Under the pieces are notes generated by a model. The model worked only from the letters and a program-made list of their open reading frames with translations, was not told the origin of the DNA and did no database searches. A DNA stretch of 64,000 nucleotides from the NCBI GenBank assembly GCA_045658565.1, contig JAZOVF010000008.1, positions 49,051-113,050 on the forward strand, in the 5' to 3' direction. Positions 29,338-33,004 of the stretch are shown here, piece by piece (the stretch's first letter is position 1; the number at the start of each line of letters is the position of its first letter). Source of the DNA: Eubacteriales bacterium. GTDB taxonomy: Bacteria; Bacillota; Clostridia; Oscillospirales; CAG-272. Position numbers and translations under genes: made by a program.

Positions 29338-30398
29338 CAGAAAAAATAGATTTATATTCAATGCTCCCCGAGGAGCTTGAAGAGTATTTTGTATCTCTCG
29401 GAGAGCCTAAATTCCGAGCAAAGCAGACCTTTCCACGTCTTGCAAAGGGGGAGAGCCTAGACGGTCTTACAAATCTTTCAAAGGCTCTCAGAGCGCGACT
29501 TGCTGAAGAAACTGTTGACACTCTTCCGCGAGTGGAAGAAAGACTCGTGTCAAAGATAGACGGAACGGTAAAGTACCTTTTCAGGCTTCACGACGGCTCT
29601 TGCATTGAGAGTGTTTTAATGAAATACAAGCATGGAAACACACTTTGCATATCCAGCCAGGTTGGCTGCTATATGGGTTGTAAGTTTTGTGCTTCGACAA
29701 TAGGCGGCAAGGTTCGCGACCTTTACCCCTCAGAGCTTCTCGGGCAGATTATCGCTGCTCAGCTTGACTCGGGGGAGAGGGTTTCAAATGTTGTAATGAT
29801 GGGTATAGGCGAGCCTCTTGATAACTTTGACAATGTAATAAAGTTTTTGCGGCTTGTAAATCACCCCGACGGTCTTAATATAGGCTATCGCCACATTTCC
29901 CTTTCAACCTGCGGTGTTGTTCCCGGAATATACAAGCTGGCTGAGGTTGATATTCCTATTACACTTTCAATTTCTCTGCACGCATCAAATGACGAAAAGC
30001 GTACAGAGATTATGCCTGTAAACAAAAAGTGGAAAATATCGGAGCTTCTCTCTGCCTGCGTAGATTATTACAAGGTTACAGGCAGACGAATATCCTTTGA
30101 ATATACCCTGATATCGGGTAAAAATGATACAGAGGCCGATGCCAAGGAGCTTGCTTCCCTTCTAAAAAACGCATTCCGAGGCACAGGCGCGCCAATACAT
30201 GTAAACCTTATCCGCGTTAATGAGGTAAAGGAAACAGGCTTTAAAAAGGGCAGTGCCGAGTCGGCAAACAATTTTGCCAAGACACTTGAGGGACTTGGCG
30301 TGGTGGCAACAGTGCGCCGCAGACTCGGTGCAGATGTAAATGCCGCTTGCGGACAGCTTCGCCGCTCCGCAATGAAAGCACAATCAGAGCAAAGCTGA
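29334..30398 (+). CDS. rlmN: 23S rRNA m2A2503 methyltransferase (radical SAM)
   Basis: CISSQVGCYMGCKFCAS, MGIGEPLDN, AACGQL. Confidence 0.98.
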   Translation: MTEKIDLYSMLPEELEEYFVSLGEPKFRAKQTFPRLAKGESLDGLTNLSKALRARLAEETVDTLPRVEERLVSKIDGTVKYLFRLHDGSCIESVLMKYKHGNTLCISSQVGCYMGCKFCASTIGGKVRDLYPSELLGQIIAAQLDSGERVSNVVMMGIGEPLDNFDNVIKFLRLVNHPDGLNIGYRHISLSTCGVVPGIYKLAEVDIPITLSISLHASNDEKRTEIMPVNKKWKISELLSACVDYYKVTGRRISFEYTLISGKNDTEADAKELASLLKNAFRGTGAPIHVNLIRVNEVKETGFKKGSAESANNFAKTLEGLGVVATVRRRLGADVNAACGQLRRSAMKAQSEQS

Positions 30399-30407
30399 GG
30401 TAATATT

Positions 30408-31349
30408 TTGATTAGTACAAAATACGGTAAGGTTGTAAAGGGCCTTGGTGGTCTATACGAAACAAGAGTAGTAACAAACGGTAAAACCGAGCGCCTCGAA
30501 TGTCGGGCTAAGGGAATACTTAAGCGCGATGAGGCAAAGGTGCTGGTTGGTGATAATGTAATAATAACAGTAGACGACTCCACCCCGGACGGTATTGTGA
30601 TTTCTGAAATTGAGGAGAGAAAAAATTCGCTGATTCGCCCCCCTCTTGCAAATCTTGATTATCTTTTTATTGTTTTTGCGGCGGTAAAGCCTTCACCTGT
30701 TATTGAAACTGTAGATAAGCTTATATCAATAGCGGAGCACAATTCAATAACCCCTGTTATAGTAATAACAAAATCCGACCTTGCAGGAGATGCTTCAGAG
30801 GAATATGCGGCAATATACCGCCTTGTGGGACTTCCTACCTTTATCACCTCATCTGAAGCAGGCGAGGGGCTTAGCGAACTTTCCTCTTATATAAAAAGAG
30901 AGTTAAAAAACGGTAAAACTGCCGCCTTTGCGGGAGCCTCGGGTGTTGGAAAATCAACTCTTATGAATGCCCTTTTTCCCGGGCTTACCCTTGCAACAGC
31001 AGAAATATCGAGAAAAATAGAGCGTGGCAGACACACCACCCGCCATGTTGAAATATTTGACATAGAGGATAACGGTGATACAGGATTTCTCGCGGATACT
31101 CCGGGCTTTTCGCTTATAGATTTTGCCCGCTTTGATTTCTTCGCGCTTGATGAGCTATTACCCACATTCAGAGATTTTACCCCCTATCTCGGTGAGTGCC
31201 GCTATGCCGACTGTGCCCACTTTGGCGAGGGTGAGGACGAGTGTGCCGTAGCACGTGCTGCATTAGAAGGCAAAATATCTCCCTCCCGCCTTGAGTCCTA
31301 CCGCTCAATATATAGAGTTTTAAAGGATAAAAAGGGTTATGATAAATAA
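30408..31349 (+). CDS. rsgA: Ribosome small subunit-dependent GTPase A
   Basis: TKSDL, GASGVGKSTL, RGRHTTR, DTPGF, CRYADCAH...C; TTG start. Confidence 0.97.
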   Translation: MISTKYGKVVKGLGGLYETRVVTNGKTERLECRAKGILKRDEAKVLVGDNVIITVDDSTPDGIVISEIEERKNSLIRPPLANLDYLFIVFAAVKPSPVIETVDKLISIAEHNSITPVIVITKSDLAGDASEEYAAIYRLVGLPTFITSSEAGEGLSELSSYIKRELKNGKTAAFAGASGVGKSTLMNALFPGLTLATAEISRKIERGRHTTRHVEIFDIEDNGDTGFLADTPGFSLIDFARFDFFALDELLPTFRDFTPYLGECRYADCAHFGEGEDECAVARAALEGKISPSRLESYRSIYRVLKDKKGYDK

Positions 31350-31865
31350 GCCTTCCCCTTGGGGAAGGGGGACCACGGAGTGGTGGATGAGGTAATAGCA
31401 ACAACTTTTATTTGTGGAGTTTTAACTTTTTGAATGATATAAAAAATGCCTTACGAATATAACAGAACTTTAACTCTTAATGCGCAAGATTTGCGAAAGA
31501 ATATGACTCCTGATGAAAAACATCTATGGTATGATTTTTTGAAGCGATTACCTTTAACTGTCAATCGTCAAAAAATGATAGGACCATACATAACTGACTT
31601 TTATATTCATTCAGCAAAAATTGTGATTAAATTAGACGGTATTCAACACGAAATGCGTGAGAGCAAAACAAAAGATGAAAAGCGCGATGAATATTTAAAA
31701 TCACAGGGGATTGCGGTGTTGAGATATAGTAATGCCGTTCTTCGGGATAATTTTAACTTTGTATGTGAAGATATTTTAAATCATCTGGGACTTGATTATG
31801 AGGTTTTGAAAAAATAAGTGTACCTCATCCACCGCAAGCGGTCCCCCTTCCCCAAGGGGAAGGCT
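31349..31865. mobile_element. Candidate mini-element: DUF559 gene bracketed by inverted REP-like repeats
   Basis: Inverted repeats at 31349-31394 and 31821-31865; flanked by a 66-bp direct repeat of the rsgA 3' end at 31286-31351 and 31873-31938. Confidence 0.7.
31446..31817 (+). CDS. DUF559 / Vsr-like endonuclease domain protein, possibly inactivated
   Basis: LRKNMTPDEKHLWYDFL...RQKMIGPYITDFY...VIKLDGIQH...DEKRDEYL...VLRYSN. Confidence 0.9.
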   Translation: MPYEYNRTLTLNAQDLRKNMTPDEKHLWYDFLKRLPLTVNRQKMIGPYITDFYIHSAKIVIKLDGIQHEMRESKTKDEKRDEYLKSQGIAVLRYSNAVLRDNFNFVCEDILNHLGLDYEVLKK

Positions 31866-31872
31866 ATCTTTG

Positions 31873-31938
31873 CCGCCTTGATTCCTATCGCTCAATATAT
31901 AGAGTTTTAAAGGATAAAAAGGGTTATGATAAATAAGC
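31873..31938 (+). repeat. Second copy of the last 66 bp of rsgA, including the stop codon
   Basis: 64 of 66 identical to 31286-31351. Confidence 0.95.
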
Positions 31939-32074
31939 ACTTTCGTGGCCCTCGATATGTTGGGATTAAAGCTGAAAAAACTTTAAGAGACTGTCTCAAG
32001 TATTTAGCTTACGGGACAGTCTCTTTTTTGTTTCAGTTGTATTTATTTTCTATAAGAATTGGAAATTTACTTTT

Positions 32075-32290
32075 CTATATTTTGTTGAAATCCGGTTTGT
32101 CTGTCCTCCCTAGAAGATAATCGAGAGAAACGTTAAAGTAGTCTGCAAATTTTATTAGTGTAGCGTAATCCGCCTCTCGTTCCTCATTCTCGTATCTACT
32201 TATGCTGTTTTGATTCATATTCAAGTCAAGAGCGAGCTTTAGCTGTGATATTTTTCGCGTTTTACGTAATTCTTTTAGCCTAAATTTCAT
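32075..32290 (-). CDS. XRE-family helix-turn-helix regulator
   Basis: RLKELRK...SQLKLA...ISRYEN...ADYFNVSLDYLLGRTD. Confidence 0.92.
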   Translation of the reverse strand: MKFRLKELRKTRKISQLKLALDLNMNQNSISRYENEEREADYATLIKFADYFNVSLDYLLGRTDKPDFNKI

Positions 32291-32327
32291 AATTTTCCTC
32301 TTTTCTCTACTTTTTTAAAAAAAGCTC

Positions 32328-32378
32328 TTGACATTATTATACCGAAATGGTATAATCTAAATATCCCGAATTGGGATA
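32328..32378 (+). promoter_or_regulatory. SigA promoter overlapped by two palindromic operators
   Basis: TTGACA-17-TATAAT at 32328-32356; tatacc-gaaat-ggtata at 32338-32354 and tatccc-gaatt-gggata at 32362-32378. Confidence 0.75.
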
Positions 32379-32393
32379 AAGGAGGATTTTTAT

Positions 32394-32966
32394 ATGAAAT
32401 GTGGAAAACATGTGAACAGCGATGCTGTTGCTCAGTGTGAGGAGTGCGGAATAGGTGTTTGTTCCCTGTGTGCTGAAGAAACAAAGCTTGCTCGCGATTC
32501 TGTAGGAATTTTGTGTATAGATTGCTATAAAGAATCATTAGAGTGGATTATTTCCAATAATAGGGAAAAGGCACGAAAAATCGGGAATCGCATAAAAGGG
32601 AAACTGATTTTTTACTTTATAGGACTTGTATGTATTCTTGCTGAGTTTCTGTTCAATCTTGGAGGTCCCGGCTTAGGACTGGGTATATTCTTTTGCGGAA
32701 TTTATATGGGTGTTGCGGGTTGGAAAGCAGGAGCGGAAGCTCATGAGGACTGGGAAAGAAAGCATGGGGTTACATATGAAGTTACTAGCGAGGGAATTAC
32801 TCGTGATGAGGGGATAGGCGGAAAAGTATTTTTGTTTGTTTTATATCTTGCATTTGGTATTATAGCGACTCCTTGTTCGTGCTTGCTTGATAAGGGTAAA
32901 AAGAGCGAAGCTGAGAAGAGCATAGCATACTTTGAAAACGAACTGTTAAGAGTAAATAATTTATAA
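32394..32966 (+). CDS. Hypothetical membrane protein with N-terminal B-box-like zinc finger
   Basis: CxxH...CxxC...CxxC...CxxC N-terminus followed by about three TM segments; AAGGAGG RBS. Confidence 0.75.
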   Translation: MKCGKHVNSDAVAQCEECGIGVCSLCAEETKLARDSVGILCIDCYKESLEWIISNNREKARKIGNRIKGKLIFYFIGLVCILAEFLFNLGGPGLGLGIFFCGIYMGVAGWKAGAEAHEDWERKHGVTYEVTSEGITRDEGIGGKVFLFVLYLAFGIIATPCSCLLDKGKKSEAEKSIAYFENELLRVNNL

Positions 32967-33004
32967 AACAAGGTTCAAGTGCTTAATCTATATAGTGGAT
33001 AAAT

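What the first reader, a model, noticed from the sequence alone, without database searches (positions are those of the whole stretch)
31286..31938. DUF559 endonuclease cassette bracketed by structured inverted repeats and a 66-bp duplication of the rsgA 3' end
Seen: [rsgA last 66 bp]-IR-DUF559 gene-IR-7 bp-[second copy of the 66 bp]. The IRs (46 and 45 nt) each hold two hairpins: ccttcccc-tt-ggggaagg and a small one that differs between copies by compensatory change (ccac-gga-gtgg versus ccgc-tt-gcgg). The two mismatches between the direct repeats are both at third codon positions of rsgA (GAG/GAT, TAC/TAT), as if the second copy were another allele. No transposase or integrase is present. Established: REP-flanked mobilisers described so far are HUH tyrosine transposases (RAYT). 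Inference: a REP-associated element built on a Vsr-like nuclease, integrating at gene ends by nicking plus recombination so that the host gene stays intact.
Basis: partly seen in the sequence, partly recalled or inferred. Interest (0 to 1): 0.85.

Follow-up and report, generated by a model that had tools for sequence, protein, structure and literature searches.

The report
Nuclease gene cassette bounded by hairpin repeats
A tiny Vsr-like (DUF559) nuclease gene sits between two inverted copies of a hairpin repeat that is scattered through this gut bacterium's genome, and it looks like an undescribed kind of small mobile element that duplicates the ends of neighbouring genes.

Summary
In detail: rsgA's last 66 bp, IR, DUF559 gene, IR, 7 bp, then a second 66-bp copy. 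Contigs from other sequencing runs bridge both junctions, and a related genome (G041) has the same layout, so it is not a misassembly.

The IR is a dispersed, two-hairpin, REP-like family with 34 model matches in this 1.67-Mb genome.
- Both DUF559 genes of the genome are bracketed by such IRs.
- So are 20 of 32 evaluable DUF559 loci, against 5 of 297 control ORFs.
- A second cassette type is a discrete 455-bp unit, 82-91% identical, at five or more loci in nine genomes, with many gene-less IR doublets.
- No Y1/RAYT gene is present.

Gene-end duplications of 26-131 bp recur at IR sites: 7 of 27 against 5 of 400 controls. At two sites the copies differ almost only by synonymous changes, so one copy came from another lineage.

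Best reading: a nuclease-plus-IR mobile cassette that spreads by recombination in the flanking gene and an illegitimate join at the hairpin end. The enzyme's action on the IRs is inferred, not shown. This copy carries K at a near-invariant glutamate.

The parts
30408..31349 (+). rsgA (ribosome small-subunit GTPase), intact; its stop codon TAA directly abuts IR-L
   Evidence: ORF; Pfam RsgA_GTPase E 1.4e-46 and RsgA_N E 7.1e-10
31286..31351 (+). Left copy of the 66-bp direct repeat: the last 21 codons and stop of the functional rsgA, plus GC
31347..31394 (+). IR-L, a forward copy of the dispersed repeat. Hairpin 1 is 31351-31368, hairpin 2 (CCAC-GGA-GTGG, 'A type') is 31373-31383, followed by the conserved GGTGGATGAGG tail
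   Evidence: covariance model R1 match at G000:C8:80394-80447
31446..31817 (+). DUF559 / Vsr-EDxHD-fold nuclease gene, 123 aa, GC 32% against 44% for the window. No own promoter was predicted, so it is probably read through from rsgA
   Evidence: Pfam PF04480 E 1.7e-26; model pLDDT 90.4; best fold matches 3r3p, 3hrl, 1cw0; GC; promoter scan
31629..31631 (+). Codon 62, AAA (K), where 120 of 121 homologues have E (IExDG motif). All four metagenome runs laid read G at 31629, which gives GAA (E)
31820..31865 (-). IR-R, a reverse copy of the repeat. Hairpin 1 is 31846-31863 and hairpin 2 (CCGC-TT-GCGG, 'B type') is 31832-31841. On the + strand it scores as terminator-like
31866..31872 (.). 7-bp filler (ATCTTTG) between the hairpin-1 end of IR-R and the right repeat. 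It is conserved as ATCTTTT in G041
31873..31938 (+). Right copy of the 66-bp repeat: a displaced, non-functional rsgA 3' end with 2 mismatches to the left copy
31987..32030 (+). Hairpin followed by a T-run, read by eye as the likely native rsgA terminator behind the right copy. It was not called by the scan tool because the loop is too long
   Evidence: sequence; my reading

Best explanation
The locus is one copy of a small selfish cassette. It is a 123-aa DUF559 nuclease gene of the Vsr / EDxHD fold, bounded by two inverted copies of a roughly 46-nt repeat with two hairpins.

The same repeat is scattered through the genome as solo copies and as gene-less inverted doublets. That is the relation of an autonomous element to its miniature derivatives, or of a RAYT gene to its REPs.

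Inferred mechanism:
1. A DNA end forms at the outer (hairpin-1) terminus of an IR. The encoded nuclease most likely makes it.
2. The IR unit, with or without the gene, enters a new chromosome together with the adjacent gene end.
3. Homologous recombination takes place inside that conserved neighbouring gene on one side.
4. On the other side, the hairpin-1 end joins illegitimately to a point a few tens of bases inside the recipient's gene end.

The gene stays whole because the incoming piece brings a complete end. The recipient's own end is pushed behind the element as a direct repeat; here that is the 66 bp of rsgA.

Shown: the anatomy, the dispersed family, the enrichment around DUF559, discrete unit boundaries, presence/absence between relatives, purifying selection on the gene, recurrent gene-end duplications, and the allele-like differences at two sites.

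Inferred: that DUF559 acts on the IRs, where it cuts, and the order of recombination steps.

This particular copy has K in place of a near-invariant glutamate, so it may be catalytically impaired.
For: 1. Family. Model R1 finds 34 matches in G000. They are almost all intergenic, and congeners have up to 55 copies. The IR bins reach summed depths in the thousands in four gut metagenome runs.

2. Link to DUF559.
- Both DUF559 genes of G000 are IR-bracketed.
- 20 of 32 evaluable distinct DUF559 loci have a flanking IR, against 5 of 297 random ORFs of G000 under the same test.
- 3 of 46 viral-contig relatives have one, and those 3 are among the closer relatives.
- Window-type proteins go with the CCTTCCCC...GGATGAGG repeat and C4-type proteins with the CTCCC-TTGTGTAAA-GGGAG repeat.
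- In C4-type cassettes the end of IR-L supplies the ribosome-binding site and the ORF ends inside IR-R.

3. Discrete unit. A 455-bp C4-type cassette recurs at 82-91% identity in nine other genomes at five or more different loci. In the six full-length matches homology stops at the IR outer ends. Many doublets of IR-L, about 20 nt, then IR-R occur, including G000:C31:36072-36197.

4. Co-occurrence in the genus. Three or more IR copies are found in 17 of 24 genomes with DUF559 (E<=1e-15), against 7 of 37 without. Y1_Tnp is absent from G000. Among the 15 genomes with ten or more IR copies, Y1_Tnp is present in 2 and DUF559 in 12.

5. Selection and age.
- dN/dS is 0.05-0.11 for DUF559.
- Between G000 and G041, dS of the two cassette genes is 0.35 and 0.28, against 0.67-1.30 for four neighbouring genes.
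- GC is 32-36% against 45-49% in neighbours.

6. Presence and absence.
- 17 of 18 congener rsgA loci have no DUF559.
- The valS site is empty in G061 and G043.
- Three IR sites of G000 are absent in G041.

7. Gene-end duplications.
- 7 of 27 IR sites in G000 against 5 of 400 random positions.
- Further cassettes have repeats of 67, 60 and 131 bp.
- In the six convincing G000 cases a repeat copy lies 0-7 nt from the hairpin-1 end.

8. Allele signature.
- At G000 C23:20124 the two 130-nt copies differ at 14 positions: 13 synonymous and one stop-for-stop (read).
- In L036 four of five differences preserve the protein, and the two copies have different stop codons and different terminators.
Against: - No biochemical or read-level evidence shows that DUF559 binds or cuts the IR. 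No excision circle or empty-site contig for rsgA was seen.
- 12 of 32 DUF559 loci showed no IR by my test.
- Only 3 of 13 loci from other families of the phylum showed one, plus two with direct-oriented hairpin repeats.
- Several IR-flanked loci are the same locus in five species, so the counts are not independent.
- IR pairs also bracket other genes. In G041 it is a T5orf172 / PDC-S57 gene. In G023 it is an HTH-HATPase-DUF4325 gene and two unknown ORFs. DUF559 could therefore be cargo.
- Long duplications are not obligatory. There are none at the valS cassette and no gene-end repeat at 17 IR sites in G020.
- At the rsgA locus the allele argument is weak. In G041 the two copies are identical to each other yet differ from G000's at 6 positions. 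That fits gene conversion or a true target duplication as well.
- Between G021 and G019 the dS of DUF559 equals that of rsgA, 0.58 against 0.57.
- The window's copy has K62.
Confidence: 0.55

Rival explanations
1. DUF559 is only cargo or a bystander. The IRs are a REP-like family moved or maintained by something else, such as host recombination or an unrecognised enzyme. Small accessory genes, including a Vsr-like repair or defence nuclease, accumulate between IR copies because ectopic recombination between dispersed IRs shuffles whatever lies between them.
For: - IR pairs bracket other genes: T5orf172 / PDC-S57 in G041, itself flanked by a 52-bp direct repeat of the IR, and an HTH-HATPase-DUF4325 gene and unknown ORFs in G023.
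- Most IR copies are solo.
- G074 has 33 IR copies and no strong DUF559 match, though it is only 64% complete.
- A DUF559 protein of Caulobacter is reported as a solitary Vsr-like endonuclease tied to a cytosine methylase (PMC12907096, passages read).
Against: - The enrichment is large and tight: 20 of 32 against 5 of 297.
- The ORF and the IRs overlap functionally in C4-type cassettes.
- The cassette recurs as one unit with exact IR boundaries at different loci.
- Protein subfamily tracks IR family.
- No methyltransferase gene is adjacent here.
Confidence: 0.25
2. The 66-bp repeat is a true long target-site duplication. It would be made by two staggered nicks tens of bases apart, followed by fill-in, with no imported allele.
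For: - The repeats directly flank the insert at rsgA (0 and 7 bp), C31:34686 (0 and 5) and C1:12871 (1 and 5).
- In L052 the insert sits inside the gene and changes its last residues from PKA to KKEN.
- In G041 the two copies are identical to each other but differ from G000's.
Against: - At C23:20124 there are 13 synonymous differences, one stop-for-stop and no non-synonymous one.
- In L036 the two copies have different stop codons and different terminators.
- On one side the repeat is separated from the IR by 58-113 nt at three sites.
- Repeat length is not fixed, ranging from 26 to 131 bp.
Confidence: 0.15
3. The direct repeats are attL and attR of a decayed integrative element, a phage or island that integrated into the 3' end of rsgA by a site-specific recombinase. 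DUF559 would be its last remnant.
For: Direct repeats formed by a gene's 3' end are typical of such elements (recalled knowledge). DUF559 relatives occur on viral contigs.
Against: - No recombinase gene lies between the repeats here (521 bp) or in G041 (about 1.5 kb).
- The repeats abut the IR ends.
- The same kind of repeat flanks solo IRs of about 60 nt and the 5' ends of genes.
Confidence: 0.03
4. The duplication is an assembly artefact.
For: The genome is in 38 contigs and the IR is a high-copy repeat in metagenomes.
Against: Contigs from other runs bridge both junctions, and G041 has the same junctions.
Confidence: 0.02

Closest known systems
REP / REPIN sequences with their RAYT (TnpA-REP, HUH Y1) genes
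   Same: Short structured palindromic repeats lie in intergenic DNA at tens of copies, as solo and inverted-doublet forms. The associated single-copy gene is itself flanked by inverted copies. Protein lineage co-varies with repeat family.
   Different: The associated protein is a PD-(D/E)XK Vsr/EDxHD-fold nuclease, not an HUH tyrosine transposase. No Y1_Tnp is present in this genome, and Y1_Tnp does not track IR abundance in the genus. Long gene-end duplications are not a feature I know of for REPs (recalled).
EDxHD homing endonuclease I-Bth0305I (PDB 3r3p) and free-standing homing endonuclease genes
   Same: It is the best fold match: E 9.3e-5, TM 0.61/0.76. It is a small selfish nuclease gene next to conserved housekeeping genes, and spread would use recombination with the flanking gene.
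   Different: There is no intron or intein and no NUMOD DNA-binding domain; the protein is 123 aa with a single domain. The same cassette occurs at different loci, so it is not tied to one homing site. It has inverted-repeat termini and gene-less derivatives.
Vsr and solitary Vsr-like endonucleases (E. coli Vsr; Caulobacter VsrA, a DUF559 protein)
   Same: Same fold family (PMC3424549 and PMC12907096, passages read). The Asp/His positions are conserved.
   Different: There is no Pfam Vsr match at E<=0.01, no adjacent cytosine methylase, and the gene is bounded by repeats and patchy among congeners (30 of 61).
MITEs and their parent transposons
   Same: Terminal inverted repeats, an internal gene in the full form, and abundant short forms made of the two ends.
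   Different: No DDE or other known transposase and no short fixed-length target duplication. The flanking repeats are absent or 26-131 bp and can be allele-like.
Homology-facilitated illegitimate recombination
   Same: Foreign DNA is integrated by homology at one end and an illegitimate join at the other (abstract of PMC3240628, seen in the listing). This topology reproduces the repeat structure seen here.
   Different: It is described as a rare, general outcome of DNA uptake. Here the illegitimate end is repeatedly the same hairpin terminus, which suggests a directed cut.

Membership tests
Pfam DUF559 (PF04480) | Match above the curated cut-off | tested here: met
   92.7 bits against a cut-off of 20.6, E 1.7e-26, profile positions 3-108 of 109. 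NCBIfam PRK09767 'DUF559 domain-containing protein' scored 64.7 bits, below its equivalog cut-off of 218.
Vsr / EDxHD nuclease fold | Fold similarity to solved members | tested here: met
   Model pLDDT 90.4. Foldseek: 3r3p E 9.3e-5, 3hrl E 1.9e-4, 1cw0 E 0.019. By sequence: 3hrl E 1e-7.
Vsr / EDxHD nuclease fold | Complete set of conserved acidic/His active-site residues | tested here: not met
   D51, D64, H68 and D77 are invariant in 32 sequences, but position 62 is K here where 120 of 121 homologues have E. Mapping of these positions onto Vsr D51/H64/H69/D97 and onto the extra acidic residue noted in PMC3239194 is my inference from motif order, not a superposition.
Vsr mismatch-repair endonuclease proper | Pfam Vsr model match and linkage to a C5-cytosine methyltransferase | tested here: not met
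   No Vsr family among the Pfam hits at E<=0.01. The neighbouring ORFs are rsgA, an XRE-type HTH gene and an unassigned membrane protein. The rest of the genome was not searched for a methylase.
Homing endonuclease (EDxHD type) | Residence in an intron or intein, or a fixed homing site, plus an added DNA-binding (NUMOD) module | tested here: not met
   Single-domain 123-aa protein. The same cassette type lies at five or more different loci. Cleavage of an empty allele is not testable with these tools.
REP / RAYT system | Dispersed extragenic palindromic repeat family | tested here: met
   34 matches to model R1, nearly all intergenic, with covariation in hairpin 2.
REP / RAYT system | A Y1 HUH transposase (RAYT) gene flanked by the repeats | tested here: not met
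   No PF01797 match in G000, which is 97.8% complete. Y1_Tnp is present in 2 of the 15 IR-rich congeners.
MITE / TIR transposon | Terminal inverted repeats with a short target duplication of fixed length and a recognisable transposase in the full-length form | tested here: not met
   The inverted repeats are present. The flanking repeats are absent (valS site) or 26-131 bp. The only gene is DUF559.
Site-specific integrative element | att direct repeats together with an integrase | tested here: not met
   Repeats are present, but no other ORF of 40 aa or more with a recombinase-like size lies between them. G041 holds only T5orf172 and DUF559 there.

The most novel reading that the evidence does not exclude
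DUF559 nucleases of this small clade are the mobilising enzymes of a previously unrecognised class of REP/MITE-like elements. Each cassette is a complete autonomous element of about 0.5 kb. Its nuclease cuts at the hairpin-1 terminus of its cognate repeat. The freed end, with the adjoining host gene end, invades related chromosomes by one-sided homologous recombination plus end joining. This would explain the thousands of orphan 'endonuclease domain-containing' DUF559 genes next to GC-rich hairpins in several phyla, and the repeat-supplied stop codons, ribosome-binding sites and gene-end duplications.
Probability: 0.4. Interest if true: 0.88.

Novelty: new variant of a known kind. Interest (0 to 1): 0.8.

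Why it matters
REP-type repeats are known to be spread by HUH tyrosine transposases. A second, unrelated enzyme class doing the same job with a 120-aa protein would be among the smallest autonomous DNA elements. It would also give DUF559, a very large family with no assigned role (4135 relatives at E<=0.001), a testable function.

The repeat family is extremely abundant in ruminant gut metagenomes. It reshapes gene ends by supplying stop codons and ribosome-binding sites, and it leaves fossil alleles that record recombination between lineages.

A compact nuclease that recognises a structured 46-nt site may also be useful as a tool.

I found no paper describing such an association. Searches: 'DUF559' gave 25 papers, none on mobility by title or abstract. 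'repetitive extragenic palindromic' with 'very short patch' gave 0. 'Vsr-like' with 'inverted repeats' and 'mobile' gave 0. REPIN/RAYT/endonuclease gave 8, all HUH-based by title or abstract. A four-term search gave 0. Subscription journals and supplementary files were not searchable.

Tried and rejected
- Rfam: no family matches 30000-33000 at E<=1.
- Reads: the laid runs were contigs only. No contig joined rsgA directly to the downstream DNA and no circle junction was seen. The listed joints between the two IRs have sides of 19-26 letters and probably come from IR doublets of other organisms. Parts of the stretch had no cover.
- Replicate of the flanking-repeat test in G020: 2 of 17 IR sites had a repeat, and both were a 23-bp hairpin of another repeat family. 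None was a gene end.
- dS comparison between G021 and G019 gave no difference, 0.58 against 0.57.
- The valS dN/dS row is wrong because I started the frame one base off. I discard it.
- The valS empty-site alignment shows the cassette is absent in G061 and G043, but it is too diverged to read a footprint.
- One of the 7 repeats (C35:1382, 22 nt, A-rich, 108 and 23 nt away) is probably chance.
- PADLOC gives only weak partial hits for DUF559: DpdF nuclease region E 5e-8 and mREase_II. PHROGs gives weak hits. I do not file it as a defence gene.
- No complex prediction was sent, because the tool takes no DNA.
- A rival in which rsgA-DUF559 synteny is ancestral remains open. G019 has a 53%-identical DUF559 after rsgA, with rsgA itself 56% identical.
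Full report
**What is in the window.** rsgA (30408-31349, +) ends in TAA, and the repeat IR-L (31347-31394) begins at once. A 123-aa ORF (31446-31817) follows, then IR-R (31820-31865, reverse orientation), seven bases, and a second copy (31873-31938) of the last 66 bp of rsgA (31286-31351) with two mismatches. The ORF is DUF559 (PF04480, E 1.7e-26). Each IR has a strong hairpin (CCTTCCCC-TT-GGGGAAGG), a conserved GGGGGACC, a small hairpin and a conserved GGTGGATGAGG tail. The small hairpin is CCAC-GGA-GTGG on the left and CCGC-TT-GCGG on the right. Both repeat mismatches are third-position, but GAG/GAT changes E to D. No Rfam family matches.

**It is not an artefact.** Contigs from other public runs bridge left repeat to IR-L and IR-R to right repeat. 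G041, a separately assembled relative with 90% identical RsgA, has rsgA end, IR, and further on IR-L, DUF559 (91% identical), IR-R, ATCTTTT and a second copy of its own rsgA end. In G041 a T5orf172 gene lies between rsgA and the cassette. It matches candidate defence family PDC-S57 at E 3e-98 and is itself flanked by a 52-bp direct repeat of the IR.

**The IR is a dispersed family.** BLAST and a covariance model built from 20 copies find 34 matches in the 1.67-Mb genome, 29 of them at E<=0.01. They are almost all intergenic. In 17 of the 29 a TAA or TAG directly precedes the hairpin, and three of these are the real stop codons of upstream genes. The small hairpin varies by compensatory change: 17 cells against 4.3 in shuffles, with 0 of 500 shuffles as high. 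The genome has no Y1/RAYT gene.

**DUF559 and the IRs belong together.**
- The genome's second DUF559 gene (contig C4, locus L001) lies between a T-box leader and valS. It is bracketed by a related but distinct two-hairpin repeat.
- Across the loci I collected, 35 were distinct, 3 had flanks too short, and 20 of the remaining 32 had a flanking IR. The same test found one at 5 of 297 random ORFs of G000.
- Five of the 20 are one locus in five species, so the count overstates independence.
- Outside the genus, a 68-nt IR brackets a DUF559 gene in a Gastranaerophilales MAG (L029).
- 3 of 13 loci from other families of the phylum, and 3 of 46 viral-contig loci, pass the same test. The viral positives are among the closer relatives.
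- Protein subfamily tracks repeat family.

**The cassette is a discrete unit.** The C4-type cassette of G021 (456 bp by my coordinates) recurs at 82-91% identity in nine other genomes of the genus, at five or more different loci. In the six full-length matches similarity ends at the outer ends of the IRs; the other three are cut or interrupted. The same search finds many pairs of IR-L, about 20 nt, then IR-R, without a gene, in at least ten genomes including G000. This is the pattern of an autonomous element with miniature derivatives.

**Distribution.**
- DUF559 (E<=1e-15) is found in 23 of 60 congeners but in only 5 of 150 genomes sampled from the rest of the phylum.
- Three or more IR copies occur in 17 of 24 DUF559-positive genomes and 7 of 37 others. 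The genomes are related, so this is not a formal test.
- The five positives without R1-type IRs that I could check carry the C4-type cassette.
- Among the 15 genomes with ten or more IR copies, Y1_Tnp occurs in 2 and DUF559 in 12.

**State of the gene.**
- dN/dS is 0.11 and 0.05 for the two cassettes between G000 and G041, and 0.07 for G021 against G019.
- dS of the cassette genes (0.35, 0.28) is lower than that of four neighbouring genes (0.67-1.30) between G000 and G041. It is equal to rsgA between G021 and G019 (0.58 against 0.57).
- GC is 32-36% against 45-49% in neighbours.
- The predicted fold (pLDDT 90.4) is closest to the I-Bth0305I catalytic domain, to the DUF559 structure 3hrl and to Vsr.
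- D51, D64, H68 and D77 are invariant in 32 sequences.
- Residue 62 is K here, where 120 of 121 homologues have E. All four metagenome runs read the E codon. This copy may be inactive.

**Gene-end duplications recur.**
- In G000, 7 of 27 IR sites have a direct repeat within 250 nt on both sides, against 5 of 400 random positions. One of the seven looks like chance.
- The others are 26-130 nt pieces of the 5' or 3' end of the adjacent gene. In each, one copy lies 0-7 nt from the hairpin-1 end of the IR.
- Other DUF559 cassettes have repeats of 67 bp (L036), 60 bp (L052) and 131 bp (L055, the uvrB end).
- At G000 C23:20124 the two 130-nt copies of a tRNA-synthetase-like 3' end differ at 14 positions: 13 synonymous and one TGA/TAA (read by eye).
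- In L036 both copies end in the same residues with different codons, different stop codons and different terminators.

Neutral decay of a dead copy would not give this pattern. Both copies evolved as coding sequence, so one came from another lineage.

In L052 the insert lies 12 nt before the stop and replaces the tail PKA with KKEN. At C31:34686 the IR is absent in G041, and in G000 it supplies the ribosome-binding site of the restored gene.

The pattern is not universal. The valS cassette has no such repeat, and none of 17 IR sites in G020 has a gene-end repeat.

**Mechanism I think most likely.** A DNA end arises at the hairpin-1 terminus of an IR. A fragment carrying the IR unit and the adjoining gene end recombines homologously within that gene. 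Its hairpin end is joined, with 0-19 bp of filler, to a point inside the recipient's gene end. This is the topology of homology-facilitated illegitimate recombination (abstract of PMC3240628 in the listing), or of one-ended homing.

It explains four things: the variable repeat length, the tight junction at the hairpin end, the looser spacing on the other side, and the allele-like differences. The nuclease is the obvious candidate for making the end, but nothing here shows it.

For the rsgA locus itself, a true long target duplication or later gene conversion fits equally well. In G041 the two copies are identical to each other yet differ from G000's at six positions.

**Rivals.** DUF559 may be cargo between repeats that move by other means, since other genes are also bracketed. 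A decayed integrative element and a misassembly are poorly supported.

**What I could not use.** Papers were seen as follows: PMC12907096, PMC3424549 and PMC3239194 as passages; all others as search listings and abstract starts only.

Noticed in passing
L001 1146-1940 (G000 contig C4): The second DUF559 cassette sits between a T-box leader (Rfam RF00230, 98.3 bits, 1146-1396) and the valS start codon. The nuclease gene and valS would therefore both lie behind the T-box terminator. G061 and G043 have the T-box joined directly to valS.
   Followed up: partly
L023 1987-2970 (G041): A 224-aa T5orf172 gene (PADLOC candidate PDC-S57, E 3e-98) is inserted between rsgA and the DUF559 cassette. It is flanked by a 52-bp direct repeat of the IR and preceded by an inverted variant IR.
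   Followed up: partly
L023 3393-3440; G000 C31:49061-49161, C31:168211-168256, C4:123572-123664; window 31833-31839 in runs X2 and X3: A second small hairpin element of about 44-52 nt is nested inside the loop of hairpin 2 of some IR copies, a repeat within a repeat. The same insertion appears in metagenome contigs at IR-R.
   Followed up: no
L055 1265-1393 and 1895-2025 (G044): Each copy of the 131-bp repeat at the uvrB end already contains two successive versions of the uvrB C-terminus (RDEIKKLR-stop) with synonymous differences. This looks like the scar of an earlier event at the same site.
   Followed up: no
G000 IR copies and 17 IR copies of G020 (L160-L177): TAA or TAG directly precedes hairpin 1 in 17 of 29 copies in G000, and by my reading in all 17 copies printed for G020. 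The GGATGAGG tail lies 5-9 nt before the ATG of the downstream gene at C31:34686 and C1:12871. The repeat can therefore donate a stop codon or a ribosome-binding site.
   Followed up: partly
L021 250-700 (G019): A DUF559 gene only 53% identical to the window's also follows rsgA directly in G019. It has its own terminator and only one IR, in forward orientation, about 60 nt further on. This is either an old shared position or repeated use of the same site.
   Followed up: partly
L178 and L180 (G023): Convergent IR pairs 1.7-2.1 kb apart enclose other genes: an HTH-HATPase-DUF4325 protein (337 aa) and two ORFs (156 and 191 aa) without any Pfam or PADLOC match.
   Followed up: partly
window 32075-32966: An XRE-type HTH gene (32075-32290, minus strand) faces a perfect 12-of-12 sigma-70-like promoter (32328-32356). 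That promoter is upstream of a 190-aa zinc-ribbon-like membrane protein gene with no Pfam match.
   Followed up: no
cassettes in the window, L023, L024, L055: Cassettes pair one 'A-type' small hairpin (CCAC...GTGG) with one 'B-type' (CCGC...GCGG). A is on the start-codon side in G000, G041 and L024, and on the other side in G044. Both types also exist among solo copies in G000 and G020. The two ends may be functionally distinct.
   Followed up: partly
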